Part shown: positions 4,158-18,027 of the stretch, one piece after another
Layout of the letters: each line of letters begins with the position of its first letter
Position numbering within the stretch: position 1 is the first letter of the stretch
Origin: Methanopyrus kandleri AV19
GTDB taxonomy: Archaea; JAADCQ01; Methanopyri; Methanopyrales; Methanopyraceae
Direction of reading: 5' to 3'
DNA length: 32,000 nucleotides
Assembly (NCBI RefSeq): GCF_000007185.1
Contig: NC_003551.1
Location: forward strand, 1,320,001 to 1,352,000
Notes under the pieces: generated by a model
What the model saw: the letters and a program-made list of their open reading frames with translations, nothing else
Databases searched by the model: none
What the model was told of the DNA's origin: nothing
Translations under genes and position numbers: made by a program

Positions 4158-4334
4158 GCGGTCGGACGCCCGCCCGGGAAAGATGGTAAACTGAAGTGTT
4201 TCCTTTTTAGATAAACCGGTTTCCGAATAGGATCTTAGGACTCGCCCGACGCCCTCGCTCGCCGAGGTTTACCATACAAGAGGAGAGGGGAGAGGACCGG
4301 ACCCGCCCGAGGGGCCGGATCGCAACGCGTGGGA

Positions 4335-4649
4335 TCAGAACCGGAGCCCCCGCACGCCCTCCGCGTCGACCCACCTGGCGACCCTGAGGCACCTCCGGCA
4401 CATCGGCACGACGATCAGGCTGTCACCCTCCTCGAAGTCCACGCGGGCGACGACCCTCCGGAGCACCCGAGCGTGCACCTCCGGCTCGGCGAGCAGCGCG
4501 TACGTCGAATACTGCAGCCTGAACGCCCCGTGGGACTCCAGAAGCTCGCGCAGCTTGCGGCGCTCGGCCTCCCCTCCCGGTTCCTTGAAGTCGTAGACGT
4601 AGAGGCGGAGGCGCGGGGACGGACCCCCCAGGACGCCCAAGGTCACCAC
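4335..4649 (-). CDS. cas2: CRISPR-associated endoribonuclease Cas2
   Basis: Cas2-like ferredoxin-fold pattern: …RLRLYVYDFKEPGGEAERRKLRELLESHGAFRLQYSTYALLAEPEVHARVLRRVVARV…SLIVVP. The preferred start is GTG 4649 (or 4646), 2 nt after the pAgo stop codon. The track's longer ORF (start 4766) would overlap the pAgo 3' end. Confidence 0.85.
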   Translation of the reverse strand: MVTLGVLGGPSPRLRLYVYDFKEPGGEAERRKLRELLESHGAFRLQYSTYALLAEPEVHARVLRRVVARVDFEEGDSLIVVPMCRRCLRVARWVDAEGVRGLRF

Positions 4650-4651
4650 CC

Positions 4652-6754
4652 TCAGACCGGCCAGGGCCGCTCCGAGACCGGGTCCCCAGGACCCACCGAG
4701 ACCCCGTACCTCGCGAGCCTCGACGCCCGATCGGCGTAGAGCACCGGTGCAGGCAGACGACTCCACGTCCCGGACGGGTTACCCCAGTTCGAGGCCGTGA
4801 GGTCATGGACCAGCCCGATCAGGTCCCCGTCGAGCTTATCGTCACGGCGGCGCAGCGCGATCGGCCTCGGGGTCCCGGGCTTCTTATCGCCCCGTCTCCG
4901 CGGCGTGTACGGTGAGCAGCATAGGTGGACGGTCGATCCGTCGAGCCGCACGTAGGCGCCCCTAGGCGCCCGCCACCCCTCCCCCTCGATCGCGTAGACG
5001 GTCGGGTCCGACTTGATCACCTCGACGACCGTCACGTCCAATCCCAGCTCCCGTCCGACCTCCCGGACTGCCTCCAGCTCCTCCCCAGGAACGGTCCCGT
5101 CCCTGAGGTAGACCACCCGATCCGAGTACTCCCGGGCCGTTTCCAGGACGATCTCGGCCGTCCTCCCCGACGTCTCGCCCCGCTCCCCCACGGGCACCGT
5201 GAACGTCCTCCCGTGCTCGATCAGGCCATCCTCATCGACCACGAAGCACGAGCAGCAGGCCCGGCCCTCGACCACGCGACCGCCCTCGACCTTCCTCGAG
5301 ACGTCCACGCCGACCACCGCGACGTCCTTCGGACCCGAGGTCGCCCTAACCGCGTACGGCTGACCCGCGTGCTTGCAGTGGATCCCGACCGCCAAAACCG
5401 TCGCCGCGTACTTCACGGTCTTCCCGTCGGAGAGGACGCGCTCCGTGAAGCACTGGACGAGCGGGTCCCTCCTCTTGACCCTCGCGTACGTCCGATCGTC
5501 GTCCGACAGCACCCCGACCAGCACCGGCCCGTCCGCGTCCCCCACCAAGTCCGGGAGGTCCACCGCGTCCGCGACTCTGACGTCACCGGCCTCCACGTCG
5601 TGACCGAGGAGGCGCCGCAGCCTCCCGACGACCAGCTCCAGCAGGCGCTCCAGGTCCCGCTCCGAGATCCCGGCGCGCCCCGGGAGCTCCCGATCGGCCA
5701 CCAGGTGGACGGCCTCCCCGTCCAGCTCGCCCGCACCCTCGTAGGGACCGTAGTTCCACAGGAGATCGTTCAACTCCGTCCGCTTACCACGTTTCTCCCC
5801 ACCCGCGACCACGGCCGGCGGTCGGACCCTCCGCGTGTCCGTGGACCCCGGGTGCTCCCTCACCTCCACCGCGACGTCCGGGAACCTCCGCCGGAACTCC
5901 CCGAGACCCCGATCCAGCAGGTACCGGCCGACCGAGACCCTGTCCGCGACCCCCAACCTGAAGTACTCCGTCACCGGGTGCACGGGTACCTGCCACCTCA
6001 GGACGTCATCCGGGTAGTGGAGAACACCACCGCCCACCTTGACCGTCACCACGACCTCCGGATCCACCTCCACGCCGTACCCGGACCAGTGCTCCCTCAA
6101 CCTCTCCAGGTCCCACCCGTCCTCGCCCTCCCATTCGTCGGCCGGGACGGCGTCCACGACCTTCAGCCTCCTACCCGTGAGCCCACCGTCAGTGGGGATC
6201 ACGTACGTCCCCGGGAGGACCCGCTCGGCCCACCCCACGCCCCGATCCCTCACCAGGTCCTTGAGCCGGACCCTCGAGATCGCCCTCGCCCTGGGATCCA
6301 CGGACAGGAGCACGGTACCGTCCCCGAGGGCCCTGGCGCGGACCTCGAGCCCCAGCCTCACCTCGACCGGACCGTACTCGCGACCCAGCGTCCTCAGGAC
6401 CCGATCCCTGACCTCCCTCCAGTTACCGAGCGCGTACACGCCCGGGATCCTCTCCCCGTCGAACCTCCCACCGTAACAGACCTCGAAGAAGTCCCGGTCG
6501 CACAACAGGGAGTACCCGGTGTCCAGCTCGAACCCGAGCCCCTCCAGGCCGAGGCGCAGGGCGGCCCGCACCGCGTAGGCCCTGGCGGTGGGGGACAGGT
6601 CATCCCAGCTCACGCGCTCGCCCCGATCTCCGGCCGAGTAGACGACGGTGTCCACCTGGAACGCGAACTCTCTCTCCCTCAAGTGGTCCTTCACGGCTCC
6701 GCGGGCGGCCCCTCGATCGTGGTAGTCCTCCCTACGGAGAACCTCGAAGTCCAT
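4652..6754 (-). CDS. ago: long prokaryotic Argonaute (pAgo), PIWI domain with apparent DEDD tetrad
   Basis: 700 aa from ATG 6754 (MDFEVLRREDYHDRG…). PIWI motifs: GVDVS, GERGE (Glu finger candidate), YLRDG and LPAPVLYADRASRLA, with spacing similar to characterised Agos. MID-like Y/K/Q/K pattern: YARVK…VQCF…AVGIHCKHAG. The track ORF's extra 49 N-terminal residues (to 6901) overlap cas1 and are Ser/Arg-rich junk. Confidence 0.9.
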   Translation of the reverse strand: MDFEVLRREDYHDRGAARGAVKDHLREREFAFQVDTVVYSAGDRGERVSWDDLSPTARAYAVRAALRLGLEGLGFELDTGYSLLCDRDFFEVCYGGRFDGERIPGVYALGNWREVRDRVLRTLGREYGPVEVRLGLEVRARALGDGTVLLSVDPRARAISRVRLKDLVRDRGVGWAERVLPGTYVIPTDGGLTGRRLKVVDAVPADEWEGEDGWDLERLREHWSGYGVEVDPEVVVTVKVGGGVLHYPDDVLRWQVPVHPVTEYFRLGVADRVSVGRYLLDRGLGEFRRRFPDVAVEVREHPGSTDTRRVRPPAVVAGGEKRGKRTELNDLLWNYGPYEGAGELDGEAVHLVADRELPGRAGISERDLERLLELVVGRLRRLLGHDVEAGDVRVADAVDLPDLVGDADGPVLVGVLSDDDRTYARVKRRDPLVQCFTERVLSDGKTVKYAATVLAVGIHCKHAGQPYAVRATSGPKDVAVVGVDVSRKVEGGRVVEGRACCSCFVVDEDGLIEHGRTFTVPVGERGETSGRTAEIVLETAREYSDRVVYLRDGTVPGEELEAVREVGRELGLDVTVVEVIKSDPTVYAIEGEGWRAPRGAYVRLDGSTVHLCCSPYTPRRRGDKKPGTPRPIALRRRDDKLDGDLIGLVHDLTASNWGNPSGTWSRLPAPVLYADRASRLARYGVSVGPGDPVSERPWPV

Positions 6755-6770
6755 CCGGACCCGAACAGCG

Positions 6771-7766
6771 TTAGACCTCCAGGGCATCCCACACAACCCC
6801 CACGTCCTCGGGGTCGAATTCGAGCGGCTCGGGCGGGGACTGACGCGAGACCCCGTCGCGGACCTCGCGGATCCGACGGTCGACCGCCTCGAGCAGGCCA
6901 CCCCGGACCCTGCTCAGGACGGTCAGGACCGGGGCCGACACGGCGTCGAGATCGCGCAGGAGGACCGCGTCTCCCTTCCACCTGAACATCTCCCTAGACA
7001 GCGAGCCGTCCAGGAAGCGGCGGAGCACGGGGACGTCCACGGCGAGCGCCCTCCACTCCTCCATCAGGTCCAGGATCAGCCCCGGCCGCCTCCCCCTGGG
7101 ACCGTGGAGGAACCCCAGGAACGGCTCGAGCCCCGCCGCCACCGTCCTCGAGAGCAGGACCGGCAACAGCACGCCCGCGTACCCGAAGCTGATCGCCGCG
7201 TTGAACGGGTCCCTCGGGGGACGCCTCGTCCTCCTCCCGGAGAACGCCCAGTCGGGTAGGACCTCCGCCAGGGCCCGGAAGTACCGGCAGGCCGCCCTCC
7301 CCTCGTAACCGCGCAGCGCGTCGGTGGAACCCGCGTTCAGCGCCCTCTCGGCCTCGGACCTCACCTCATCAGCCGCGTCCTCTAATCCGGTGATCCCGGT
7401 CTCATTGGCTAGGAACTCGAGGACCGCGGCCCTGGCCAGGATCGAGGAGGCGATCAGCGGACGGGCGAAGGCGAGACGCGCCGACGGTTGTGAGGCGATC
7501 TCGTACTGCTTCAACCTCAGGGTCGCGTACCGCTCCGAGAACGGTACGGTCACGCCCAGGATCCGGTTCCCTCCGAGGTACACTATCGGGACCTCGTTTC
7601 TGAGCGCTAACCGCACGGCCTGGGTCGTGATCTGGGCTCCACCCGCGATGATTATCCCGGTAGTACGGACCGCTGAGTACTTGCTCTTCCCGATCCGAAA
7701 CGCGTCTTCTCTCCTCTCGATCTTACCCCTTCTCAGGAAGATCACGGTGTCGTTCGGGGCGCCCAT
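6771..7766 (-). CDS. cas1: CRISPR-associated endonuclease Cas1
   Basis: Cas1 hallmarks: …YEGRAACRYFRAL…, RRTRRPPRDPFNAAISFGYAGVL, GFLHGPRGRRPGLILDLMEEWR. ATG 7766 is preceded by ggtggggtg (SD-like). TTG 7787, the track start, is the alternative. Confidence 0.95.
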   Translation of the reverse strand: MGAPNDTVIFLRRGKIERREDAFRIGKSKYSAVRTTGIIIAGGAQITTQAVRLALRNEVPIVYLGGNRILGVTVPFSERYATLRLKQYEIASQPSARLAFARPLIASSILARAAVLEFLANETGITGLEDAADEVRSEAERALNAGSTDALRGYEGRAACRYFRALAEVLPDWAFSGRRTRRPPRDPFNAAISFGYAGVLLPVLLSRTVAAGLEPFLGFLHGPRGRRPGLILDLMEEWRALAVDVPVLRRFLDGSLSREMFRWKGDAVLLRDLDAVSAPVLTVLSRVRGGLLEAVDRRIREVRDGVSRQSPPEPLEFDPEDVGVVWDALEV

Positions 7767-7805
7767 ATCGGACACCCCACCGTCCAAAGAAGGTAGGTTA
7801 CGGGT

Positions 7806-7862
7806 TGATATTATTTACGCCTTAGTTTGACGAAAATATCAGTATATATATTATTTTTATGA
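7806..7862 (-). promoter_or_regulatory. AT-rich promoter region (TATA-like) upstream of the cas1-ago-cas2 operon
   Basis: gtatatatattatttttat lies at 7841-7860, 55-95 nt upstream of the candidate cas1 starts, against a strongly GC-rich background. Confidence 0.35.
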
Positions 7863-8406
7863 ACGATTTCTCGGCGCTCAAGCCTTGAAACCGGGGAATT
7901 CGAGGTGCGGTGATCGCCTGGGATCGGGATCGATTAACGCAAACAGCTTATATTGACCGGACATATGCTCGCGTCGCGGCGCGTTCCTAGGACATGATTA
8001 CACCAGCGTACAGGACGCTGAAAGGTTGGCAACTACGCTCGGAAGCCCTGCCTGTCGACCCCGATGGCTCTACACGCGCGGTACGACGGATCGACGGACT
8101 CCGGGCGTCTTCGGGTTCGAGACTTCCCGCCAACGACATCTTAGTGCCGAGCCCGGAGGCGGACAACGGCCCGAATCGTCACGTGTCACCGTAATCGCGT
8201 GAACGATCATCCTTGAACTATTATCCACACTATCTCGAGTTTAAACTGACACTAATTAGTTATAAAACGACTATAATTTTATTACTTAATAGAAATAAAG
8301 TTTTGAAACCTGTAATTACCTATTTTAACTATTAAGTTAATTGTAAGAGTTACGATTCTGACATCGAGGTCATGAAGCGTGCGATCGAAACCTCCGTACC
8401 TCGAGA

Positions 8407-8671
8407 GTTTCATTACCCATTTTATCACGGACGTCCACGGCACGTATCTTGCGCCGGGTTTCATTACCCATTTTATCGCGAGTTAATCGTGAGGCTCAGT
8501 GTGAGTTCTCGGATGAAGACTGAGAGATCGTTGAAGACTTTTTCGTTTCATTACCCGTATTATTGCGGGTTAATTGCGAGACTAGACCTATGTGCTCTGT
8601 TATAACCCATGCGTCGGTGGTCGTCATGTTACCCCGTTTCATTACCCGTATTATTGCGGGTTAATTGCGAG
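8407..8671. CRISPR. mini CRISPR array: 2 intact and 2 degenerate 36-nt repeats
   Basis: Identical repeats GTTTCATTACCCGTATTATTGCGGGTTAATTGCGAG at 8545-8580 and 8636-8671, with an internal hairpin ACCCG/CGGGT. A degenerate copy at 8458-8493 has 6 mismatches. At 8407-8442 only the first ~22 nt are conserved. Spacers are 51 nt (8494-8544) and 55 nt (8581-8635). Transcription direction is ambiguous (see findings). Confidence 0.85.
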
Positions 8672-9240
8672 GGCGGGCGGTTCTCCCGGAGGATCACCCT
8701 TTACACTCCGAAACCACCGAGGGGATTCCCCATCCCTGGCCCACCAAAACCAGCACATCAGTTTTATTTAAAGATTATCCCGATTCCGCTGAACACTTGA
8801 TCATACTAAAATCCAACACTAATTCGTTTCCATTTAGTCGAAAGCTTAATATACAACATTGGTAATACCGAAAATCATAGTTTCTTCTGATGAGTAATTA
8901 ATAAGTTAACTTAATGAAGTAATAATTACATAGTGTTGATGAACCGCTTTGATACCTCGTGAGAATCACAATTCTTTGCTAACGGTTAGAATCGTTATCC
9001 CTTCGAAGCGAAGTAAGGTGCAGGATTCGCACTATTAAAGTGCACTAGTTGGGCTATAGCCAAAGTCTAAGCGATATCAGTAAGTATGAGTAAATAGAGT
9101 AATACTCAATACTCAAGCGCCCCAGAACCACCACCTCCTACGGGGAAGGACCAGCCTTTCCATCCGGTTAATTAACTCGATAAAAAGTGAGTATGATGTA
9201 GTATTATAATCATCACGTATTTATAACACCAATCTCACCA
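8672..9240. other. long AT-rich ORF-less block flanking the intact end of the CRISPR array (candidate leader)
   Basis: The first ~70 nt are spacer-like, followed by ~500 nt of markedly low GC with no credible ORF. It contains a strong TATA-like ttttatttaaag at 8763-8774, about 95 nt from the last intact repeat. Confidence 0.4.
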
Positions 9241-9451: not shown

Positions 9452-10918
9452 TCACACGCGGGCTCTGCACCTCGGCGGGATCACGGGCGGTACCAGGACC
9501 GGGAACCCTCGCTTGCCGCCCTTCTCAGGGGGTTTCTCGGGCGGCTGTTCCGGCGGGCTCTCCGGTGGGTTGCTCGGCGGTGTCCGACCCTGCCCATCCC
9601 GTCGCCCTCGCTCCTTCACGGTGAACGACAGCCGCTCCCTGTACTCACCGTACGGCCCCTCGTACCTCACGATCAGGGTGTAATCGCCGGGTTCCTCCGG
9701 CGCCCGGAACCTGAACATCACCAGGCCACCGTCGACGTATCCCCCGGGTAGTAGTTCCACCGCACCCAGGTCGGTGACCGACCCACGTTCGTCCTTCAAC
9801 TCGAACCTCAGGACGCCCTCCTCCGGCCAACAGTCCCACGGCCACTCGTCCGCACACCAAGGCCCCCACCAGTACAGCCGCGGTCGGACGAGCACCGTCA
9901 CCTCGGAACCGGCCTCTACGGGATCGGGCGTCAGCGAGATATCGAAGATTACCCTCTTCTGCCTGATCTCGACCACCATGACCACGGGTACGTACGGGAA
10001 CCCGAACCTCTCGACGACCCGCGGCCACTCCGACCGTACTACCTCGGCGCGTTTCCGCTCGTACTCCTCGTACGACATCTTCCGCGGGTCGATACCGACG
10101 ACGTCGATGGTGACGACGTCTCCCAGCGCCAGCATCAGGTGGTCCATGACGTGGACCTCGTACGACGTCCAGGGGGCGCCTTCAGGGACGTGGGTGAAGA
10201 CGCCGTCCGGCCACACGAAGAGCTCGACCTTGACGCTCAGCGTCCTGAGGGCGCAGTCCAGACACCACGCGGCCGGGTACGGCTGTACCGGGACGGGCCA
10301 CTCGACGGCTCCGATATCGTACAGGTACTTCAGCTTCACTCCATAGGGGAACGATATGCCCTCACCGTTCCAGACGGGTTCTACCATCTGGAGGTCCGGC
10401 ACCCGGTGCACGGCTGGTATCCTGAGCTCCAGGACCAGGGCGGAGTCGTGGGCCTCGGGCGTCACCCGGAAGTCGAGCTGGGTCCACTTCCAGGTCTCAT
10501 CTAGGAACTCCCACGTGACCTCCGAGCCGTCCGCGGGTTCTACCCGCTCCCATTCCTTCCAGATGATGTACATCCACTCCTCTGCCGGCGGTACTTCTTC
10601 CGCCTCACCCCACTCGATCTCCGGGTAGAACCTCGCCTCGAGGACCTCCGCGTCCGGCGGCAGGAGCACGTGCAACGTCACCGGCTTCCCGGGGTTCCTG
10701 GTACTGATCGCCGCGATGTACTCCGCGTCCACGTAATCGAGGACCTTATCGCCGTGCCACGTAGTCTCTTCCTTCCAGTGGACGTCCTCGACGATCAGCC
10801 AGCTCTTCACGCTGACGTCCGGGAGCACCTCCGGGTCCACCCAGACGGCACCGTGACCCGGTAGCGGTAGTAGGATGAGGGCGACCGGAAGCACCGTCGA
10901 TGGGAAGGCCCGCCTCAT
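9452..10918 (-). CDS. secreted/cell-surface protein, paralogue of 29240..30568
   Basis: ATG 10918 gives MRRAFPSTVLPVALILLPLPGHG (signal peptide). It has an Ig/CARDB-like C-terminal module (…LVMFRFRAPEEPGDYTLIVRYEGPYG…), a Pro/Glu linker and the tail FPVLVPPVIPPRCRARV. Identity to the 29240 gene is roughly 50% (estimated by eye). The track ORF's extra N-terminus (to 11089) precedes the signal peptide and crosses the promoter. Confidence 0.8.
   Translation of the reverse strand: MRRAFPSTVLPVALILLPLPGHGAVWVDPEVLPDVSVKSWLIVEDVHWKEETTWHGDKVLDYVDAEYIAAISTRNPGKPVTLHVLLPPDAEVLEARFYPEIEWGEAEEVPPAEEWMYIIWKEWERVEPADGSEVTWEFLDETWKWTQLDFRVTPEAHDSALVLELRIPAVHRVPDLQMVEPVWNGEGISFPYGVKLKYLYDIGAVEWPVPVQPYPAAWCLDCALRTLSVKVELFVWPDGVFTHVPEGAPWTSYEVHVMDHLMLALGDVVTIDVVGIDPRKMSYEEYERKRAEVVRSEWPRVVERFGFPYVPVVMVVEIRQKRVIFDISLTPDPVEAGSEVTVLVRPRLYWWGPWCADEWPWDCWPEEGVLRFELKDERGSVTDLGAVELLPGGYVDGGLVMFRFRAPEEPGDYTLIVRYEGPYGEYRERLSFTVKERGRRDGQGRTPPSNPPESPPEQPPEKPPEKGGKRGFPVLVPPVIPPRCRARV
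10469..10522. repeat. 54-nt stretch identical to 30128..30181 (inside the paralogous genes)
   Basis: gaagtcgagctgggtccacttccaggtctcatctaggaactcccacgtgacctc occurs in both genes and encodes EVTWEFLDETWKWTQLDF. The flanking DNA is much more diverged. Confidence 0.9.
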
Positions 10919-10950
10919 GCCCAAGCCCCGGGCGGTGGGCGTACCGGGGA

Positions 10951-10980
10951 GGTATGAAAATATTTTTCGTACAGGTAATA
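10951..10980. promoter_or_regulatory. AT-rich TATA-like element in the divergent intergenic region (secreted-protein gene / cas10)
   Basis: ggtatgaaaatatttttcgtacaggtaata is the only AT-rich patch between the divergent genes. It lies about 40 nt upstream of ATG 10918 on the minus strand and could also drive the csm operon on the plus strand. Confidence 0.4.
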
Positions 10981-11273
10981 GCGCGGGTGTTCTCGGACGT
11001 GGGTCGTCCCGCACGGGATGCTCCGATCCGAGCCGGTATCCGGGGTTCGTCACCGTCCAGGGGTTAGGCGACCCGCAGCTGTTTTCCACTGAGTCAACCG
11101 ACCGACGGGAGGCCGCTGAAACCGAGCCTCGGAACGGTTACGGTTTCCTCATCAACGGAACTGGTTTTGAGAAATCGAGGGTGTGTCGCGCGTCGTTAAC
11201 ACTCCGATGGGATTACTACCCTTATAACTCGGGACGGCCACCTTGGTGTCCCTATGCCGGTGGGGGTGACCCG

Positions 11274-14015
11274 GTGGAGCGGGTGGCCCTGGCGGGGCTC
11301 CTCCACGATGTCGGGAAGCTCCCGCAGCGCTCCGGGGAGCGCGGGAGCCACCAGAAGCTGGGCGCGGAGCTGCTTAAAAAGGCCTTCGGCGGTCGGGAGC
11401 GGGAGGACGAGACGCTGGGCCTCGCGGTCCTGGCGGCACGGTACCACCACTCCGACTCGCTCGGGGACGCTCGGCCGAGTGACCTGGAGGTCCCGGAAGA
11501 CTGGGGCCTGGAGCTGGCGGTCGTGGCCCTGGCCGACACCCTGGCGAGCGCGGAGCGCGGGAACAACGAGCTCGACCGGGAGGAACCCCGTGGCGATCAC
11601 CGCGGGTACTGGACCCTGTACAACCCTTGGTACCGGATCTGGGAGGCCTTCCGGAGGCGACTGGGCGGCGAGGTCCCGGGCGGCTGGGGCTGGACCGAGG
11701 GGCGTCCGGAGTTCGTCCCGGACGAGCTCCCGCTCCTGCACCTCAACGTCGACCCCCGGGAGTTCGAGCCCCCGAAGGTCGTGGAGGAGGGTGAGGGTTA
11801 CCGGGGGCGCTACCGCGGGCTGGCCGGGAGGTTGACCGAGTGGTTGAAAGGGCTCGGTGTCCGGGACCATCCGCACCCGTTCGACCCGGCCCGGGTGGCG
11901 ATGGAGGTCACGACGTCGCTCGTCCCGGCCCAGCACTACATCCCCGAGGGCCGCGACCACATGCGCTCGATCACGCTCTACGACCACTCGCTCCTCACCG
12001 CGTCCCTGGCCTCGTGCCTGTGGTACCTGGTCGAGGAGGGTCACCTCGACGGCCCGGAGGATAACCCGTCGGAGGCTTACCACCGGTTGAGGGACGGGTT
12101 GAGGGAGGGCCGGGGCTCCTTCCTCCTGGTGCGCGGGTCGCTCTCCGGTATCGGCGAGTTCATCCGCTCGGTCCGGCGCGCGTCCCCGCTCGAGGAGAGG
12201 AGGCGTACGGCCTCGTACCTCAAGATCATCCGGGGACGCTCGGCCTTCGTGGACCTGCTCACGGCGGGCGCGGCCTGGACCGTCCTCCGCGAGACCCTGG
12301 GTCGGGACGCGCACCCCGCGTTCCTGCTCCGGGCGGCGGGTGGCTCCTTCACGCTCCTCCTGCCGAACACCGAGGAGGTCCGGGAGGCGCTCGAAGCGGT
12401 TCGGGAAGGATTGAAGCGGTCGGTGTCGGAGGGCAGCGACGGGGTCCTCTCCCTCGGGCTGGCCTGGGTCGAGCTGGACTGGGACGCCCTGATGAGGAGG
12501 GAGCGGTTCAGGGAGCGCGTGGAGGAGCTGGGTCGCCGGGAGTCGGAGGACCGGCGTCGCGCGGTCCTGCCGGGTCGGGGGACGACGTCCCGGGTCGAGG
12601 AGCCCTGCCCCGTCTGCGGGAGCCCGGTCCCGGAGGATGAGGGGTGCGAGCACTGCGAGCGGCTGGGGGACCTGGGCGACTCCCTGGTCCGCCGGGACGA
12701 GGAGGACCGCCCGGTGTTCGCGGGTTTCCTGGTCTACGAGGATCGGGACGGTTCCGGGGACGGTGGGGATGTCGTGCACGAACGCGACGGGCACCGGTAC
12801 CGCGTGCACCACGTGACCCGCGAAGGGTTGGGCGGTGCCGTCTCGGTAGGTGGACTGCTCCTGGTGGATCCGGCGCACGTGGAGGAGGCGCTGAAGTGTG
12901 CGCGGAAGGCGGCAAAGGAGGGGAAGTCTCCGGCCCGGGTCGTCATGTCCTACTTCCCGTGGTACGCGGCTACGAAGGACGACGTGCCGGAGTCGGAGGG
13001 AGAGGAGGGGATCGCGACGTTCTCGGGGATGGCGGAACGCTCCCCGGGCGCGTCCCTGCTGGGGTTCGCGTACGTGGACGTGGACAACCTGGGCGAGTGG
13101 GTGAGGGAGGCCGCGGGCGACGCGTTCGGCGTACTGCTTTCGATCTCCAGGTTCACGGACCTGGTCTTCCGCCACTGGGTGAACGCGCTGGGGTTCCGGA
13201 CGGTCGCGGAGTTGCTGGACGACGTGCCGGGACTCGAGGTGAGGCTGGCGGACGGCGGGCGGGAGCTCGACCCGCCGGAGCTGCTACCGAGGTTCGGGGA
13301 GGACGGGGAGCCCGAGCCGGAGCACGGGGAGGACCGCGGTCGGCCGTTCCTGTTAGTGTACTCGGGCGGCGACGACCTATTAGTGGCGGGCGCGTGGAAC
13401 GAGGCGTACTCGCTGCCGTTCGAGGTCTTCCTGCTCTTCTCGCACGTCACGGGTTACCTGCCCGTCGCGTCCCTGTCCGGGGCGGTCGTGCTCACGCGGA
13501 AGAAGGCCCCGTTCCACCTGGTCCTGCGGGCGCTCAAGGCGCGGGAGCGGGAGGCTAAGCGCGCGGGTGAGGGCGACGACCCCGTGCGGGTGAGGCTGGC
13601 GCCGAAGGGTTACGTTTCGCTGTTGAGGTTATCCGTTTCTAAATCATTGAATGTCAAAGAATTGGAATCGGATAGCGAAAACCAGGATACACATCCCGTC
13701 CCCGGACCCGTGCGGTTCGACCTGGCCCTCGCCGCGGTGGACATGTTGAAGGACGTCGTGGGCGCGCTCGACCGGAAGGCGCGGGCCTACCGGCTGCTCC
13801 GCGCGCTCCGGTCCTGGTGGGGGCGCGGCGACGTGGGAGCTGCCTCGGCGCTCGCGTACGTCGTCTCCAGGATGGAAGACGACTCGGGGGTCGACCTCTC
13901 CGGGACGCTCCTCTCGGTCCTGCCGGTTAAGCCTCCCGAGGACGCCGAGCTGTACCCGGTCGGCCTGTTCGACGTGGCCCTGATCCCGCACCTGATCGCG
14001 AGGAGGGGAGGATGA
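11274..14015 (+). CDS. cas10: Cas10/Csm1, type III-A large subunit (HD + two Palm domains, GGDD)
   Basis: Motifs: HD LAGLLHDVGK…ARYHHSD; SLSGIGEFI (DxSGIQxFI-like); zinc finger CPVCGSPVPEDEGCEHC; cyclase motif LLVYSGGDDLLVAGAW. The preferred start is GTG 11274, preceded by tgggggtgac. GTG 11181 is the alternative. The track start 10875 overlaps the divergent promoter and is unlikely. Confidence 0.93.
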   Translation: MERVALAGLLHDVGKLPQRSGERGSHQKLGAELLKKAFGGREREDETLGLAVLAARYHHSDSLGDARPSDLEVPEDWGLELAVVALADTLASAERGNNELDREEPRGDHRGYWTLYNPWYRIWEAFRRRLGGEVPGGWGWTEGRPEFVPDELPLLHLNVDPREFEPPKVVEEGEGYRGRYRGLAGRLTEWLKGLGVRDHPHPFDPARVAMEVTTSLVPAQHYIPEGRDHMRSITLYDHSLLTASLASCLWYLVEEGHLDGPEDNPSEAYHRLRDGLREGRGSFLLVRGSLSGIGEFIRSVRRASPLEERRRTASYLKIIRGRSAFVDLLTAGAAWTVLRETLGRDAHPAFLLRAAGGSFTLLLPNTEEVREALEAVREGLKRSVSEGSDGVLSLGLAWVELDWDALMRRERFRERVEELGRRESEDRRRAVLPGRGTTSRVEEPCPVCGSPVPEDEGCEHCERLGDLGDSLVRRDEEDRPVFAGFLVYEDRDGSGDGGDVVHERDGHRYRVHHVTREGLGGAVSVGGLLLVDPAHVEEALKCARKAAKEGKSPARVVMSYFPWYAATKDDVPESEGEEGIATFSGMAERSPGASLLGFAYVDVDNLGEWVREAAGDAFGVLLSISRFTDLVFRHWVNALGFRTVAELLDDVPGLEVRLADGGRELDPPELLPRFGEDGEPEPEHGEDRGRPFLLVYSGGDDLLVAGAWNEAYSLPFEVFLLFSHVTGYLPVASLSGAVVLTRKKAPFHLVLRALKAREREAKRAGEGDDPVRVRLAPKGYVSLLRLSVSKSLNVKELESDSENQDTHPVPGPVRFDLALAAVDMLKDVVGALDRKARAYRLLRALRSWWGRGDVGAASALAYVVSRMEDDSGVDLSGTLLSVLPVKPPEDAELYPVGLFDVALIPHLIARRGG

Positions 14016-14016
14016 G

Positions 14017-14541
14017 ATGGGCGCGGATCTGAGGCCGGCGGAGCTCGCGGAAGAGTACCTGTACAAGCCGGGTCGACTGGACAGGAACCGTAGGGAGGAC
14101 GCGGAGCGGAGGTTTGAGAGGTTGCTGAACGACTTCAAGGCTAAGAGGATACAGCTGAAGCCCTCGGACGACGGGCTCCTAGAGCTCGCGTTCTTCACGG
14201 CACTGGTGTCGTTGAATGTCTCGAACTCGCAGCTCAGGCGGCTGTACGCCGAGATCACGAACGTCCGCAACGAGACCAGGAGGGCCAGGGAGGGGAAAGG
14301 GAGCTGGGAGGACGTGGTAGCCGCCCTGGGCAAGGCCCGCGTCGTGCTCGCGTACACGAAGGGTCGGCAGGGGAAGGAGTTCGAGGGCCTGTACGAGGTC
14401 CTGGACGAGGCGCTGCGTAAGGCGACGAAGATCGTTGAGGACTCGGAGGACGACGACGTCCGGAGGCGCGCGATCGAGGCCCTTCACTTCCTGGCCGAGG
14501 GCATCGTCGCGTTCCACCGCTTCCTGGGCGGTAGGAGCTGA
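14017..14541 (+). CDS. csm2: Csm2 (Cas11 small subunit, type III-A)
   Basis: The ATG lies 1 nt after the cas10 stop. It is all-helical and carries Csm2-like motifs: SNSQLRRLYAEITNV…, ARVVLAYTKGR…, and FLAEGIVAFHRF at the C-terminus. Confidence 0.85.
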   Translation: MGADLRPAELAEEYLYKPGRLDRNRREDAERRFERLLNDFKAKRIQLKPSDDGLLELAFFTALVSLNVSNSQLRRLYAEITNVRNETRRAREGKGSWEDVVAALGKARVVLAYTKGRQGKEFEGLYEVLDEALRKATKIVEDSEDDDVRRRAIEALHFLAEGIVAFHRFLGGRS

Positions 14542-14553
14542 GGGGGGTCGAAC

Positions 14554-15609
14554 GTGGTCGGTATCGGCGGCACGATCACGCTGGTCGGCGAGATCCGGCT
14601 GAGGACGGGCACGCGGATCGGCACGTCCGAGGAGGAGATCGAGATCGGCGGGCTCGACAACCCCGTGATCAGGGACCCGGTGAGCGGATACCCGTACGTC
14701 CCGGGCTCCTCGCTGAAGGGGCGCGCCCGGGCGCTGTTCGAGCTCGCGTGGATGAAGAGCCGGGAAATCGAGCCGGACGTGTTCTTCGGCGCCCACCACA
14801 ACGAGCGCCACGAGTGCGGGTTCGTGCGGCGGGAGGTGTACGAGGAGGCTAAAGAGTACCTGCGCGAGGATCCGCCGTGGCTGGAGAACGGGACGTGTCC
14901 GGTCTGCCGGATCTTCGGGTCGGCGGGCGACGGGATCGGGTTCTCGGACCCGGGGAGGCTGGAGGACGAGCGCCGGGGACTCGGGTACGATCCCTACGGG
15001 CGGTACCGGGACCCCAACGACGCCCAGGAGCTCTCCGGGGTCGTGGACGTGAAGAAGGAAGCGCGCGTGGCCTTCAGGGACGCCCACCCGACTACCTACA
15101 CCGTTAATGACGTCTTCGAGCGGGCGGGCGAGCCCACGGAAGTCAAGCACGAGAACGCGATCAACCGCGTCAGCGGTGAGGCCAACCCGCGCTCGATGGA
15201 GCGCGTCCCGAAAGGTTCGCGCTTCGGTCTGGAGGTCGTCTACCGGGTCGAGGACGGGGAGGAGCTCGAGTCGGACCTGAAGTACCTGATGTCCTCGTTG
15301 AAGCTCGTGGAGGACCAAGGGATCGGCCACAGCACCTCCCGGGGCTACGGCCGCGTCGAGTTCAGGATCGCCGCCCTCTGCGCGCGGTCGACCGGGTGGT
15401 ACCTGGACCCGGGCGCGGGCGAGGGGTTCCCGGAGGAGGAAGACAAGGACGAGGCCGCCGACGAGGTCACGTACCTGAGTGACCTCGAGGCCGAGCGGTA
15501 CGAGATCGTGATCCGCGCCCGGGACCTGGAGGACCGGGCGTACCTGCGTCCCGAGGAGTGGGTGGAGCGGCTGGACGAGGTGGTCGGCGAGCTCCCGTGG
15601 GGCCGATGA
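14554..15609 (+). CDS. csm3: Csm3 (Cas7-family RAMP, crRNA backbone/target RNase subunit), unusually long
   Basis: Motifs: LRTGTRIGTSEEEIEIGGLDNPVIRDPVSGYPYVPGSSLKGRAR (includes the conserved Asp position), CPVCRIFGSAG, HENAINRVSGEANPRSMERVPKGSRF, and the G-rich loop SRGYGRVEF. GTG start with an upstream gagggggg. Confidence 0.9.
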   Translation: MVGIGGTITLVGEIRLRTGTRIGTSEEEIEIGGLDNPVIRDPVSGYPYVPGSSLKGRARALFELAWMKSREIEPDVFFGAHHNERHECGFVRREVYEEAKEYLREDPPWLENGTCPVCRIFGSAGDGIGFSDPGRLEDERRGLGYDPYGRYRDPNDAQELSGVVDVKKEARVAFRDAHPTTYTVNDVFERAGEPTEVKHENAINRVSGEANPRSMERVPKGSRFGLEVVYRVEDGEELESDLKYLMSSLKLVEDQGIGHSTSRGYGRVEFRIAALCARSTGWYLDPGAGEGFPEEEDKDEAADEVTYLSDLEAERYEIVIRARDLEDRAYLRPEEWVERLDEVVGELPWGR

Positions 15610-15610
15610 C

Positions 15611-16702
15611 GTGGAGCTGGTCCTGGAGCTGTCGCTGGGTCGGTTCCGCGCGGGGGACGCTATCGAGCGGACCCGGACCTCCGTCCCCGCCCAGACGCTC
15701 TTCGGGGCGATCCTCGGGGCGACCCTGGAGCTCCTACGCGGCGACGGCGAGGACCCGGACGTCGTAAAGGAAGTCCTAGACGCGCTGGTCGGCGGCCTCG
15801 AGCTCACGGACGCGTTCCCGCTGGACCGCGGGGGCGAGCCGCTGCTCCCCGTACCCGAGCACGTCCGCCGGGAGCTCTCGGACCCAGAGCGATACGGGGA
15901 GGTGCTGAGGGAGCTCGCGGGTGACGACGTAGACACGGGGACCCACGGGCTGGTGACCGAGCCGGAGCGCCTGCCGCTGTCCCTGTTCACGGATCTCTGC
16001 GTCGAGGGGTCGCCGACGGATCCGGCGACGCTGAAGCGGCTGCGGGAGTGGCTCTCGGGGGAGCACGACCCGGTCGTGGGCTCCGGCCGGCTCACCCACG
16101 CCTCGGTCCCCAGGACGGGCGATGACACGACGCCGTTCACCCTGGACTACGCCAGCGGCCGCGGGATCGAGGGTCCCACGCACGTGGCCTTCCTCAGGTA
16201 CGATGGGAAGGAACCGGACTACTACGACGTCGAGGCGCTGCTCCGCGCGGTCCTCCGTTATCTCAGGGACGCGGGGCTCGGCGGTGCCAGGTCCCGGGGC
16301 GCGGGTGAGGTCTTAGAGGCGGGGCTCAGGGAGCCGGAAGGCGAGGAGAAGCTGCTGTTCTCGCAGCGGATGAGGGTCGAGGAGGGCGAGCCCGCGATCA
16401 CGCTCTCGGCCTGCGCACCCGAGGGGGACGCGGAGTTCTACGGCCGGGTCGAGCGGAGGGGCCTCCACTACGCCCGGGTGGGTCCTTTCGTGACGAATTA
16501 CCGGGTCCCGCGCCACTACCTGGCCGCGACGGGTTCGTACTTCCCGGAGTGGCCCGGCGCGGAGAACCTCAGGTTCGAGGTCCCGGAGGGGCTGCTCCCC
16601 GGGTTCCTCCGGGGCGACCCGATGTACCGGGGCGGGTACGAGCTCGTCGTCTACGGTCGAGGGTTCCCGGTCCGGGTCAGGGCGTTGGGGGACGGGGATT
16701 GA
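15611..16702 (+). CDS. csm4: Csm4 (Cas5-family RAMP, type III-A)
   Basis: The GTG lies 1 nt after the csm3 stop. Motifs: N-terminal …SVPAQTLFGAILGATLELL (Csm4 S/PxxTLxGAi motif) and G-rich loop DAGLGGARSRGAGEV. Confidence 0.85.
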   Translation: MELVLELSLGRFRAGDAIERTRTSVPAQTLFGAILGATLELLRGDGEDPDVVKEVLDALVGGLELTDAFPLDRGGEPLLPVPEHVRRELSDPERYGEVLRELAGDDVDTGTHGLVTEPERLPLSLFTDLCVEGSPTDPATLKRLREWLSGEHDPVVGSGRLTHASVPRTGDDTTPFTLDYASGRGIEGPTHVAFLRYDGKEPDYYDVEALLRAVLRYLRDAGLGGARSRGAGEVLEAGLREPEGEEKLLFSQRMRVEEGEPAITLSACAPEGDAEFYGRVERRGLHYARVGPFVTNYRVPRHYLAATGSYFPEWPGAENLRFEVPEGLLPGFLRGDPMYRGGYELVVYGRGFPVRVRALGDGD

Positions 16703-18027
16703 CCGTCCTGCTGGTCCGGAACGTGGGCGTGAACGACGTCCGGGTGGACGGCGAACGGGTGAACGAGCCGTACTACGTGCTCAAGGAGCTGGTCGAGTCG
16801 GGCGACCTCGACGGCGTGTCCTTCCCGATCCTAGAACGGGTGCTGGAGGAGCTGGAGCCCGACCGGATCGTCCTCTTCGCGACGGACCAGGATCCGGGAT
16901 CGACCCCGAGGCATCTGAAGGCCAAGGACACGCTGTACGTCGCGGAGGCTATGCGCGAGCTCCTCGACGTCGAGGTCGAGGTCCGGGTGATCCGCGAGAA
17001 CCCGTCGGACCACGACGCGATGCTGGAGCTCTACGGCCGGGAACTCCCCGAGGTCCTGGACGGGGCCGAGGAGGTGTACCTGGACGTGACGACGGGTACG
17101 CCCGCCCAGTCGCTGGCCCTCGCGCTCAAGGGTCTCGAGGTCGAGCCGGACGCGGAGCTCGTGTACGTGTCCGAATCCACCGGGACTACCCGGATCCGCG
17201 TGGGCGACGAGCTGCTCCGGCGGATCGCGGACGAGCTCCTGGAGTACGGGCTGAACGACCCGGCCGCCAGGGTCCTGTCCCACACCGGGCTGGACGACCT
17301 CCGTACCTACGCCGAGGCGCGGGCGGCCGAGGACCGGTTCGAGTTCGAGCGGGCTCGGGAGCTCTACCGGGGGCTCCCCGAGGACTTCCTGGACGTCTCG
17401 GATCGACTGGAGCGCGTGGAGCGGGCGCTCTCGGACGATCCCGTGGAGAGAATGGCCGAGCGCACCCGTTACGTCCTGGACCGGGCGCTGACGCACCTGA
17501 AGCGTGGCGAGTACGGTGAGTACGTCCTCCGGACCTGCGTCGCCCAGGAGATGATCCTGTGGACGACCTTCTCCGCGGTCTCCGGTCGCGAGCCTGACCC
17601 GGACGAGTTCGTGCGGCACGCGTCGCGGGAGGCGGACTGGGATCCCAAGTACGGTAACCTCGGGGACTTGATCCGCAGGGATCCGGTGAGCACCCTAGCT
17701 CGCTACCTCGGGGACTACCTGGAGGACCTCACCTCGCTCGAGGTCACCGACGCGGGTCGGGCGGCCGCCGTGAACGCCCTGGCCAGCTACTACGTGGTTA
17801 AGGGGCTCAGGGAGCTCCGGGACGACTACGCGCACCGGGCGATCAGGATCACGCTCGAGGATGTCCGGGAGGCCCTCGGACGCTCGCGCGTGGACTCGGA
17901 GTACTGGGAGAGGAAGCACGGTCACGGCCCCGACTTCAAGTTCCCGTCGGAGGAGGACGACCCGGAGGCGGCCGTCGAGGCCCTCCGGGAGTGCGTGGAC
18001 GCGATCGAGCGGGCGGTGGGTCGATGA
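16699..18027 (+). CDS. csm6: CARF-HEPN protein (Csm6/Csx1-like ancillary ribonuclease)
   Basis: TTG 16699 overlaps the csm4 stop (TTGA). The N-terminal Rossmann-like CARF pattern is VLLVRNVG…, RIVLFATDQD, VYLDVTTGTPAQSLALAL. The C-terminal HEPN R-x4-H motif is LRELRDDYAHRAIR. Family assignment is from motifs only. Confidence 0.72.
   Translation: MTVLLVRNVGVNDVRVDGERVNEPYYVLKELVESGDLDGVSFPILERVLEELEPDRIVLFATDQDPGSTPRHLKAKDTLYVAEAMRELLDVEVEVRVIRENPSDHDAMLELYGRELPEVLDGAEEVYLDVTTGTPAQSLALALKGLEVEPDAELVYVSESTGTTRIRVGDELLRRIADELLEYGLNDPAARVLSHTGLDDLRTYAEARAAEDRFEFERARELYRGLPEDFLDVSDRLERVERALSDDPVERMAERTRYVLDRALTHLKRGEYGEYVLRTCVAQEMILWTTFSAVSGREPDPDEFVRHASREADWDPKYGNLGDLIRRDPVSTLARYLGDYLEDLTSLEVTDAGRAAAVNALASYYVVKGLRELRDDYAHRAIRITLEDVREALGRSRVDSEYWERKHGHGPDFKFPSEEDDPEAAVEALRECVDAIERAVGR

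What the first reader, a model, noticed from the sequence alone, without database searches (positions are those of the whole stretch)
4335..7787. Long, apparently catalytically intact Argonaute nested between cas1 and cas2 in one compact operon
Seen in sequence:
- cas1 stops at 6771 and the ago ATG is at 6754, a 16-nt gap. The ago stop is at 4652-4654 and the cas2 GTG is at 4649. The three genes therefore look co-transcribed from the AT-rich promoter at about 7840.
- No cas4 and no type I effector genes accompany cas1/cas2.
- The Ago has all four PIWI catalytic positions (GVDVS, GERGE, RDG, YAD), a canonical-looking MID 5'-end pocket (Y..K / Q / K) and a full-length N-PAZ-MID-PIWI size of 700 aa.

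Established knowledge: pAgos are guide-directed nucleases that can generate their own guides by chopping DNA, and Cas1-Cas2 integrates short DNA fragments.

Inference: the physical nesting suggests a functional link. Ago might supply or select prespacers, or act as an interference arm for the adaptation module. I recall comparative-genomics notes of pAgo genes embedded in CRISPR-cas loci, including in Methanopyrus, but as far as I know no mechanism is established for this arrangement. I cannot verify the literature here.
Basis: partly seen in the sequence, partly recalled or inferred. Interest (0 to 1): 0.85.

Follow-up and report, generated by a model that had tools for sequence, protein, structure and literature searches.

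The report
Known Methanopyrus Argonaute inside cas1-cas2 operon
This is the already published case of the archaeon Methanopyrus kandleri carrying an intact Argonaute nuclease gene between the two CRISPR spacer-acquisition genes; the layout is real and conserved in the genus, but its purpose is still untested.

Summary
On the minus strand, cas1 (7766-6771), a full-length Argonaute (6787-4652) and cas2 (4640-4335) lie head to tail with no oligo-T terminator between them.

Two coordinates need correcting:
- ago most likely starts at ATG 6787, giving 711 aa and a 17-nt overlap with cas1, not at 6754.
- cas2 most likely starts at TTG 4640, not at 4649.

The protein is 100% identical to MK1311 (AAM02524.1) of M. 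kandleri AV19. Its place in the cas operon was reported in 2006 and repeated in 2009, 2013, 2015 and 2018. The finding is therefore already known. I found no biochemistry or mechanism for it.

What this work adds:
- The DEDD catalytic tetrad and the canonical YKQK 5'-phosphate pocket are invariant, so this is not an MpAgo-like "MID-OH" Argonaute.
- A confident model matches full-length Argonautes.
- The cas1-ago-cas2 order persists in four further Methanopyrus-lineage sequence types, down to about 55% Ago identity. The three genes diverge in step and are under purifying selection.
- CRISPR arrays flank the trio in all but one locus, which breaks off upstream of cas1.
- A complete type III-A module lies 3 kb away.

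A functional link to spacer acquisition is plausible but unproven.

The parts
6771..7766 (-). cas1 (331 aa from ATG 7766; the longest ORF reaches TTG 7787). The catalytic residues E155, H221, D233 and E237 are present.
   Evidence: Pfam Cas_Cas1 4.5e-58 and TIGR00287 5.9e-54. The residues are invariant in four orthologues and were checked.
4652..6787 (-). ago, a full-length prokaryotic Argonaute of 711 aa, identical to MK1311 / AAM02524.1. Approximate domains from the model: N-L1-PAZ-L2 residues 1-355, MID 356-478, PIWI 479-711.
   Evidence: 100% identical to P0138. PADLOC pAgo 1.1e-147. AF2 model pLDDT 85, pTM 0.84. Foldseek matches to full-length Agos, E 1e-27 to 2e-32, TM 0.55-0.67. Start codon argued.
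5372..5488 (-). Codons of the MID 5'-phosphate pocket: Y434 (5488-5486), K438 (5476-5474), Q445 (5455-5453), K472 (5374-5372).
   Evidence: Invariant in the four aligned Methanopyrus-lineage sequences, the window's included. Invariant or nearly invariant in the 27-sequence pAgo alignment. The YKQK pattern is shared with most of 102 full-length pAgo hits. Codons verified.
4730..5305 (-). Codons of the PIWI catalytic tetrad: D495 (5305-5303), E538 (5176-5174), D563 (5101-5099), D686 (4732-4730).
   Evidence: Invariant columns in A1 and A2. They lie in segments that align with the A. aeolicus Argonaute (1yvu) and CtAgo (9iad) PIWI domains. The DEDD pattern appears. Codons verified.
4335..4640 (-). 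cas2 (101 aa from TTG 4640; alternative GTG 4649 gives 104 aa).
   Evidence: TIGR01573 5.8e-24 and Pfam CRISPR_Cas2 1.5e-07. Gene callers give 101 aa in L001 and L004. N-terminal comparison.
7800..7866 (-). AT-rich segment upstream of cas1 (GC 0.30 in 7800-7849), a candidate archaeal TATA/BRE promoter. A GGGG ribosome-binding-like run lies just before the cas1 ATG.
   Evidence: Composition, sequence. AT-rich elements and the GGGG run recur upstream of cas1 in L001-L003. No transcript data.
8407..8671 (-). CRISPR mini-array. It has two perfect 36-nt repeats (8636-8671, 8545-8580), one degenerate repeat (8458-8493) and one truncated repeat (8407-8429). Spacers are 55 and 51 nt. The degenerate end faces cas1.
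   Evidence: (Rfam CRISPR-DR11, 63.5 bits).
8672..8775 (-). CRISPR leader with the box A element TTTAAA (8767-8772). [quoted passage not shown] The array is therefore read in the same direction as cas1-ago-cas2.
   Evidence: Sequence. The geometry matches the description for all five M. kandleri arrays in PMC3695527. Spacers are C-rich in this orientation.
10875..19115 (+). Type III-A effector module: cas10/csm1 (10875-14015; HD at residues 143-144, GGDD at 831), csm2 (14017-14541), csm3 (14554-15609, = PDB 4N0L), csm4 (15611-16702), csx1/csm6 CARF-HEPN (16549-18027) and csm5 (17991-19115).

Best explanation
The locus is the CRISPR adaptation operon of Methanopyrus kandleri AV19, with the long Argonaute MK1311 nested between cas1 and cas2.

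Shown:
- The three ORFs overlap or nearly abut: cas1/ago overlap by 17 nt, and ago/cas2 are 11 nt apart.
- No oligo-T terminator and no AT-rich promoter-like stretch separates them.
- A CRISPR array and a type III-A effector module lie next to them.
- The Argonaute has the full N-PAZ-MID-PIWI fold, an invariant DEDD tetrad and an invariant YKQK pocket.
- The gene order is retained across Methanopyrus lineages.

Inferred:
- The three genes are co-transcribed and translationally coupled.
- MkAgo is an active slicer that binds 5'-phosphorylated guides. By analogy with PfAgo, MjAgo, TtAgo and TtdAgo, these are most likely small DNA guides directing DNA cleavage.
- Co-expression couples Argonaute attack on invading DNA with spacer capture. 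Ago-made breaks or fragments would raise the supply of foreign DNA substrates for Cas1-Cas2. This locus has no Cas4, and type III systems are reported not to need a PAM (PMC5965380).
For: - Identity: the Ago is 100% identical to AAM02524.1 / Q8TVS7, and Csm3 equals PDB 4N0L.
- Gene families.
- Junctions and absence of a T5 run on the coding strand.
- Start codon evidence.
- Fold: pLDDT 85, with Foldseek full-length matches to AaAgo, TtAgo, TtdAgo, CbAgo, hAgo2 and Siwi.
- Motifs.
- Conservation: the cas1-ago-cas2 order is kept in L001, L002, L003 and L070/L071; L004 carries the window's own allele.
- Co-divergence: against L002 and L003, Cas1 is 59-67% identical, Ago 56-58% and Cas2 63-80%.
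- Purifying selection: dN/dS is 0.20-0.48 for all three genes.
- Arrays flank the trio, with their degenerate ends facing it, in the window, L002, L003 and L004; L070 also carries an array, downstream of cas2.
- Flanking genes differ between loci while the trio stays constant.
- M. kandleri crRNAs carry 5'-OH ends, whereas the pocket is of the 5'-phosphate type. This argues that guides are not crRNAs.
- Published precedents: TtAgo together with plasmid raises cas and CRISPR expression, and long-A pAgos cooperate with Cas4-family nucleases.
Against: - No transcript, biochemical or genetic data exist for MkAgo.
- Synteny is seen only within one genus, so vertical inheritance of a chance insertion is not excluded.
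- None of the 64 loci with the nearest Cas1 relatives encodes a PIWI protein, so Cas1-Cas2 of this type works without Ago elsewhere.
- One metagenomic lineage (L070/L071) has an early TGA and a frameshift in ago while cas1 and cas2 remain intact.
- Spacers are 48-67 nt, far longer than the 15-30 nt of Argonaute guides (abstract of PMC10954474). Direct hand-over of guide-sized DNA is therefore unlikely.
- Guide and target chemistry cannot be read from the sequence.
Confidence: 0.45

Rival explanations
1. Co-located but independent. The Argonaute is a stand-alone innate defence nuclease whose gene landed between cas1 and cas2 in an ancestor of Methanopyrus. It has been inherited vertically since. 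At most it shares a promoter with the adaptation genes and has no mechanistic exchange with Cas1-Cas2.
For: - The family is confined to Methanopyrus. Only Methanopyrus-type sequences score below 1e-30, and the next hit is at 1e-12.
- The nearest Cas1 relatives lack any PIWI neighbour.
- ago carries lesions in L070/L071 while cas1 and cas2 are intact.
- Makarova et al. 2009 judged pAgo-CRISPR cooperation unlikely in general, and Swarts et al. 2015 argued that pAgo is not directly involved in adaptation.
Against: - The insertion sits exactly between two genes that are normally adjacent. The start overlaps cas1 in four lineages (14-29 nt), and the gene order has stayed the same while the flanks were rearranged.
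- A second, unrelated pAgo group (MID-OH, MpAgo-like) is also always found with cas1 and cas2. Independent recurrence is hard to put down to chance.
Confidence: 0.35
2. Extra CRISPR effector. The Argonaute is loaded with CRISPR-derived RNAs (crRNAs or their fragments) and serves as an additional interference arm of the type III system. This was proposed for MpAgo-like proteins.
For: - The array is transcribed towards cas1-ago-cas2, with no T5 run in between.
- MpAgo-like pAgos in CRISPR loci use 5'-OH RNA guides.
- The idea of shared guides was raised in the 2009 review discussion.
Against: - The MID pocket is the canonical YKQK 5'-phosphate type, invariant in every lineage. M. kandleri crRNAs need T4 PNK treatment before sequencing, so they carry 5'-OH ends.
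- No MID-OH pattern was seen among the 136 best homologues.
- crRNAs with about 55-nt spacers are much longer than Argonaute guides.
Confidence: 0.08
3. Integral adaptation subunit. Argonaute is part of the integrase complex and helps to select, trim or measure prespacers. This would account for the unusually long spacers of Methanopyrus arrays.
For: - Spacers are 48-67 nt, median 55. Arrays beside the nearest Ago-less Cas1 relatives have periods of 65-81 nt, which gives estimated spacers of about 33-57 nt, most of them 34-45.
- The ORFs are tightly coupled, and Cas1 has a conserved acidic C-terminal tail encoded across the ago start.
Against: - Spacers of 37-57 nt occur in Thermoproteus tenax, where no Ago link is reported.
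- The lineage with a damaged ago (L070) still has 49-66-nt spacers, although these could predate the lesions.
- No structural or interaction data exist.
Confidence: 0.12

Closest known systems
MK1311, the Methanopyrus kandleri AV19 Argonaute in the cas operon (Makarova et al. 2006 and 2009; Su et al. 2013; Swarts et al. 2015; Willkomm et al. 2018)
   Same: It is the same gene. The protein is 100% identical. The literature states that it lies between cas1 and cas2 in a CRISPR-cas locus of an organism with type III-A and III-B systems.
   Different: Nothing differs in the object itself. This analysis adds the corrected start, the motif and fold checks, the conservation in further Methanopyrus lineages, and the array and type III-A context.
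MpAgo-like 'MID-OH' long-A pAgos of Marinitoga piezophila and Thermotoga profunda (Kaya et al. 2016; Ryazansky et al. 2018)
   Same: They are long, catalytically active pAgos encoded inside type III CRISPR-cas loci next to cas1 and cas2.
   Different: Those proteins replace the 5'-phosphate pocket with a MID-OH pocket and use 5'-OH RNA guides. They sit in subtype III-B loci with the scheme Cas1-Cas2-Cas6-pAgo-Cmr. MkAgo keeps YKQK, sits strictly between cas1 and cas2, neighbours a III-A module, and no MID-OH-type protein appears among its 136 best homologues.
DNA-guided long-A pAgos of thermophiles (TtAgo, PfAgo, MjAgo, TtdAgo, AaAgo, CtAgo)
   Same: They share the four-domain fold, the DEDD/DEDX tetrad and the 5'-phosphate pocket. 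They are the best sequence and structure matches in the PDB.
   Different: Sequence identity is only 12-18%. Outside Methanopyrus only the MID-PIWI half is detectable by sequence for most hits. None of these is nested in a cas1-cas2 operon.
APACE1: cyanobacterial long-A pAgo plus the Cas4-family nuclease ACE1 (Mol Cell 2025, PMC12094033)
   Same: A long-A pAgo is co-encoded with a protein of a CRISPR-adaptation-related family and shown to cooperate with it. CtAgo (9IAD) is among the best PDB sequence hits.
   Different: The partner there is a Cas4-like nuclease acting in interference on invading DNA. Here the partners are Cas1 and Cas2, and no Cas4-like gene was found in the window.

Membership tests
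Long catalytically active prokaryotic Argonaute (long-A type) | PIWI domain with the complete DEDX catalytic tetrad | tested here: met
   D495, E538, D563 and D686 are invariant in A1 and A2 and lie in segments that align with the A. aeolicus Argonaute and CtAgo PIWI domains. The Pfam Piwi score alone is below the gathering score (25.7 vs 28.9 bits), but the PADLOC pAgo model scores 1.1e-147.
Long catalytically active prokaryotic Argonaute (long-A type) | MID domain with the Y/K/Q/K 5'-phosphate binding pocket | tested here: met
   Y434, K438, Q445 and K472 are invariant in the Methanopyrus sequences and match the pattern of most of 102 full-length homologues.
Long catalytically active prokaryotic Argonaute (long-A type) | N, L1, PAZ and L2 domains present (full length) | tested here: met
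   The AF2 model (pLDDT 85, pTM 0.84) aligns over 770-886 columns with full-length Argonautes, TM 0.55-0.67. Caveat: the MSA contained pAgos, and the N half has almost no sequence signal outside the genus.
Long catalytically active prokaryotic Argonaute (long-A type) | Guide-dependent endonucleolytic cleavage of a complementary target | not testable with these tools
   No biochemical report on MkAgo was found.
MpAgo-like MID-OH CRISPR-associated pAgos | MID-OH pocket (canonical Y and K replaced, 5'-OH guide binding) | tested here: not met
   The canonical YKQK pocket is retained. The definition of MID-OH comes from PMC6299218.
MpAgo-like MID-OH CRISPR-associated pAgos | Encoded in a CRISPR-cas locus with cas1 and cas2 nearby | tested here: met
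MpAgo-like MID-OH CRISPR-associated pAgos | Subtype III-B context (Cas6, Cmr genes) with the scheme Cas1-Cas2-Cas6-pAgo-Cmr | tested here: not met
   The neighbouring module is type III-A (Csm1-5 plus Csx1/Csm6). No Cas6 or Cmr gene was detected in the window.
CRISPR adaptation module (Cas1-Cas2 integrase) | Cas1 with the catalytic E/H/D(E) residues, and a Cas2 partner | tested here: met
   E155, H221, D233 and E237 are invariant. Cas2 matches TIGR01573 at 5.8e-24.
CRISPR adaptation module (Cas1-Cas2 integrase) | Adjacent CRISPR array with a leader | tested here: met
   The array is at 8407-8671 and the leader box A at 8767-8772. Arrays also flank the trio in L002, L003, L004 and L070.
CRISPR adaptation module (Cas1-Cas2 integrase) | Spacer integration activity, and any dependence on Ago | not testable with these tools
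   Requires integration assays or genetics.
Single operon (one transcript) | Overlapping or abutting ORFs on one strand, with no terminator or promoter between them | tested here: met
   cas1 and ago overlap by 17 nt, and ago and cas2 are 11 nt apart. The only T run of 4 or more on the coding strand is one TTTT inside ago. The region 4001-7000 has GC of about 0.69.
Single operon (one transcript) | A continuous transcript across both junctions | not testable with these tools
   No transcript data are accessible. The published M. kandleri RNA-seq targeted small RNAs.
pAgo plus Cas4-family nuclease systems (APACE1-like) | A Cas4-family PD-(D/E)XK nuclease gene adjacent to ago | tested here: not met
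   No Cas4 or PD-(D/E)XK hit in any scanned ORF of the window.

The most novel reading that the evidence does not exclude
The Argonaute is a working part of the Methanopyrus spacer-acquisition machinery. It either generates or hands over invader DNA to Cas1-Cas2, or it sits in the integrase complex and contributes to the unusual spacer length of about 55 nt. That would directly link the two guide-based prokaryotic immune systems. The new support is the conservation of the nested order across Methanopyrus lineages.
Probability: 0.2. Interest if true: 0.8.

Novelty: already known. Interest (0 to 1): 0.35.

Why it matters
Whether Argonaute defence and CRISPR adaptation ever work together has been an open question since this very locus was pointed out in 2006. 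If MkAgo feeds or shapes spacer acquisition, it would be the first mechanistic bridge between innate, guide-based DNA interference and heritable CRISPR memory. It would also explain how a Cas4-less type III system obtains prespacers.

What this analysis adds is modest:
- The arrangement is conserved and under selection across the genus.
- The protein has a canonical 5'-phosphate pocket, unlike the MpAgo group.
- The gene starts inside cas1.

These points sharpen the experiments but do not change the status of the finding: known arrangement, unknown function.

Tried and rejected
- Plasmid collection search with the trio: no match.
- Exact look-up of the 700-aa form: nothing found. The 711-aa form was found, which helped to correct the start.
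- Word-indexed homologue search with a 27-sequence profile: only the same three proteins.
- Genome-collection scan with the Ago profile: no relative found, so Methanopyrus genomes seem not to be retrievable there.
- Metagenome scan: returned only the contig already in hand.
- AF2 with four sequences: unusable, pLDDT 46.7. It was replaced by the 27-sequence run.
- Kaya et al. 2016 and Swarts et al. 2014 are not held, so the MpAgo locus layout is cited second-hand.
- The sigma-70 promoter and bacterial terminator scan does not apply to an archaeon. I used AT content and oligo-T runs instead.
- Membership in the MpAgo-like group was considered and rejected because the pocket is YKQK.
- A spacer-end nucleotide bias that might betray Ago processing was looked for in 22 spacers. 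Nothing convincing emerged (second base C in 13 of 22 against a 38% C background).
- The 'Ago as ruler' idea was weakened by long spacers in T. tenax.

Full report
**Observation**

The ORF map and the raw sequence confirm three consecutive minus-strand genes.
- The upstream ORF is Cas1 (Pfam Cas_Cas1 4.5e-58; TIGR00287 5.9e-54).
- The downstream ORF is Cas2 (TIGR01573 5.8e-24).
- The middle ORF hits Pfam Piwi only weakly (8.3e-06, below the gathering score). It matches a PADLOC pAgo model at 1.1e-147 over residues 81-710.

**Start codons**

The four aligned sequences, the window's included, all keep the residues S-N-A-x-x-V upstream of that ATG. At the DNA level these codons vary synonymously between lineages; the Ala codon is GCT, GCC, GCG and GCA. 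The codon corresponding to ATG 6754 is CTA or CTG in two lineages.

The start is therefore most likely ATG 6787. This gives 711 aa and a 17-nt overlap with the end of cas1. Gene callers and GenBank use the same form. In the other lineages ago also starts inside cas1, with overlaps of 14-29 nt. cas2 most likely starts at TTG 4640 (101 aa), 11 nt after the ago stop. cas1 most likely starts at ATG 7766 (331 aa).

**Operon character**

- The coding strand between 7787 and 4335 contains no run of five T's. The only T run of four or more is a single TTTT inside ago.
- GC is about 0.69 across 4001-7000 and falls to 0.30 in 7800-7849 upstream of cas1.
- AT-rich elements and a GGGG run just before the cas1 start recur in the other loci.
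- This fits one promoter and translational coupling, but I could access no transcript data.
- The bacterial promoter and terminator scan is not informative for an archaeon.

**Identity of the window**

The 711-aa protein is 100% identical to AAM02524.1 / WP_011019679.1 / Q8TVS7 of Methanopyrus kandleri, carried on a 1,694,969-bp record. The neighbouring Csm3 is the crystallised M. kandleri protein 4N0L. The window is therefore M. kandleri AV19 and the gene is MK1311.

**The Argonaute**

- The Methanopyrus sequences share invariant D495, E538, D563 and D686, and invariant Y434, K438, Q445 and K472.
- In a 27-sequence alignment with distant pAgos these are invariant or nearly invariant columns.
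- In an alignment with 102 full-length homologues they fall on the YKQK/DEDD pattern that most of those proteins show.
- The segments carrying the three aspartates align with the A. aeolicus Argonaute and CtAgo PIWI domains.
- A four-sequence AF2 run failed (pLDDT 46.7).
- With the 27-sequence alignment the model reached pLDDT 85 and pTM 0.84. It matched full-length Argonautes over 770-886 alignment columns, with E values of 1e-27 to 2e-32 and TM scores of 0.55-0.67. The matches include AaAgo, TtAgo, TtdAgo, CbAgo, human Ago1/2 and Siwi.
- The 'full-length, catalytically intact, canonical MID pocket' claim therefore stands.

The family is very isolated. In 1.8 billion representative proteins only Methanopyrus-type sequences score below 1e-30. 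The next hit is at 1e-12 and usually covers only MID-PIWI.

- Upstream of cas1 lies a CRISPR mini-array at 8407-8671. It has two perfect 36-nt repeats, one degenerate repeat and one truncated repeat, with spacers of 55 and 51 nt.
- The degenerate repeats face cas1.
- A TTTAAA box lies at 8767-8772, and G residues lie 71-73 nt upstream of the repeat at 8671. This is the geometry published for all five M. kandleri arrays.
- The array is therefore read on the minus strand, towards cas1-ago-cas2. No T5 run intervenes, so read-through cannot be excluded.
- Three kilobases further on, on the plus strand, is a complete type III-A module: Cas10 with HD and GGDD motifs, Csm2, Csm3, Csm4, a Csx1/Csm6 CARF-HEPN protein and Csm5.
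- No Cas4, Cas6 or type I gene was detected in the scanned ORFs.

**Conservation**

- The order cas1-ago-cas2 recurs in a second M. kandleri strain (L001, Ago 95% identical), a Methanopyrus sp. MAG (L002, 54-58%), a hydrothermal metagenome contig (L003, 52-56%) and a further population from the same sample (L070/L071).
- Against L002 and L003 the three proteins diverge in parallel: Cas1 59-67%, Ago 56-58%, Cas2 63-80%. The N and C halves of Ago diverge at equal rates.
- dN/dS is 0.20-0.48 for all three genes.
- Flanking genes differ between loci. In L003 there are arrays on both sides and an MCM gene upstream. Arrays lie next to the trio in every locus except L001, whose contig breaks off upstream of cas1.
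- In L070/L071 ago has a TGA at about codon 6 and a frameshift in a C-run near codon 340, at the L2/MID border. cas1 and cas2 are intact there, and both Ago halves still show dN/dS of about 0.47. This could be recent decay, a split Argonaute, or a sequencing error reproduced in both assemblies.

**Survey outside the genus**

A scan of one genome per prokaryotic species with the Cas1 profile returned 64 loci, at most 49% identical over their best matching segment and mostly 28-42%. They are bacterial apart from one Methanoperedens fragment. None has a PIWI-domain ORF within 10 kb. Their arrays have periods of 65-81 nt, which gives estimated spacers of about 33-57 nt, most of them 34-45. Methanopyrus arrays have periods of 84-103 nt and spacers of 48-67 nt.

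**Literature**

- Makarova et al. 2006 called the presence of the Argonaute MK1311 in a M. kandleri cas operon 'perhaps the most remarkable observation'.
- Makarova et al. 2009 repeated it and noted that it was then the only such genome.
- Su et al. 2013 state that the Argonaute gene lies between cas1 and cas2, and that the organism has III-A and III-B systems and five arrays.
- Swarts et al. 2015 and Willkomm et al. 2018 discuss a possible link to adaptation and say it is untested.
- Ryazansky et al. 2018 describe a second group, the MID-OH MpAgo-like pAgos, always found with cas1 and cas2 in III-B loci.
- Searches for 'MkAgo' and related terms found no biochemical or genetic study.

**Mechanism**

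Shown:
- a compact, conserved, selected three-gene unit beside an array and a type III-A module;
- an Argonaute with every sequence and fold hallmark of an active slicer that binds 5'-phosphate guides.

Inferred:
- The three genes are co-transcribed.
- MkAgo cleaves with DNA guides, by analogy with its nearest characterised relatives.
- Argonaute attack on invader DNA is coupled to the supply of substrates for Cas1-Cas2.

Arguments bearing on the models:
- The crRNA-guide model is disfavoured because M. kandleri crRNAs carry 5'-OH ends while the pocket is the 5'-phosphate type.
- Direct transfer of guide-sized DNA is disfavoured by the roughly 55-nt spacers.
- The null model, a chance insertion inherited vertically with co-regulation only, remains strong. 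Synteny is confined to one genus, related Cas1 proteins work without Ago, and one lineage may be losing ago.
- Against the null model stand the exact nesting, the overlapping starts, the stability of the trio while its flanks change, and the independent recurrence of the association in the MpAgo group.

**Verdict**

The finding is already known. I rate interest at 0.35. This is a long-standing, still unanswered question with slightly improved comparative support, not a discovery.

Noticed in passing
window 8407-8671; L003 5948-6602 and 12863-13538; L070 8153-9107: Methanopyrus CRISPR spacers are unusually long: 48-67 nt, median 55, with 36-nt repeats. Arrays beside the 64 nearest Cas1 relatives have periods of 65-81 nt, giving estimated spacers of mostly 34-45 nt. 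Long spacers also occur in Thermoproteus tenax, so a link to Ago is not established.
   Followed up: partly
L070 5089-7261 and L071 6177-7238 (JGI sample 3300026512, the same sample as L003): In a second Methanopyrus-like population ago has a TGA at about codon 6 and a frameshift in a C-run at the L2/MID border. This leaves a 353-aa MID-PIWI ORF, while cas1 and cas2 are intact. Both halves still show dN/dS of about 0.47. It may be recent decay, a split Argonaute resembling AfAgo plus its N-L1-L2 partner, or a sequencing error reproduced in both assemblies.
   Followed up: partly
22 spacers from L003 and L070 (the mismatch cut-off dropped the window and L002 spacers), read in the crRNA sense: Spacers are strongly C-rich (C 38%, G 23%, T 24%, A 16%) in the inferred crRNA orientation. 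The crRNAs would therefore be complementary to purine-rich strands, as expected if type III targeting of transcripts selects spacer orientation. This also supports the array orientation assigned here.
   Followed up: partly
window 9452-11089 (-) and 29240-30817 (-); L001 9454-11031: These are paralogous genes of 525-545 aa (45% identity over 526 aa; DNA blocks 71-96% identical, about 19.65 kb apart). They have no hit in Pfam, NCBIfam or PADLOC. The two window copies bracket the type III-A module and about 10 kb of unrelated genes. A gene of the same length, also without a Pfam hit, lies near the trio in the other M. kandleri strain but was not compared.
   Followed up: partly
window 2642-3265 (+); also L001, L002, L003, L070: A DUF1678 gene (5.7e-102) lies within a few kb of the cas1-ago-cas2 trio in every locus examined, although its side and orientation vary.
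   Followed up: no
window 7788-8406: About 620 nt separate the array trailer from cas1. The stretch includes a GC-richer segment with a 66-aa plus-strand ORF (7994-8194) that has no family hit, and a possible further degenerate repeat near 8312-8350. No T5 run lies on the minus strand, so pre-crRNA read-through into cas1 is possible.
   Followed up: partly
window 6771-6935 (Cas1 residues about 275-331): Cas1 has a conserved C-terminal extension of about 55 aa beyond the Pfam Cas1 domain. It ends in an acidic, proline-containing tail (SPPEPLEFDPEDVGVVWDALEV), and its last codons overlap the ago start. It is a candidate partner-binding tail but was not analysed further.
   Followed up: no
window 14554-15609 and 10875-14015: Csm3 is identical in length and sequence match to PDB 4N0L (8.4e-240). 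Cas10 retains the HD (residues 143-144) and GGDD (831) motifs, and a Csx1/Csm6 CARF-HEPN gene sits inside the csm operon. The type III-A system therefore looks fully functional, with cyclic-oligoadenylate signalling.
   Followed up: yes
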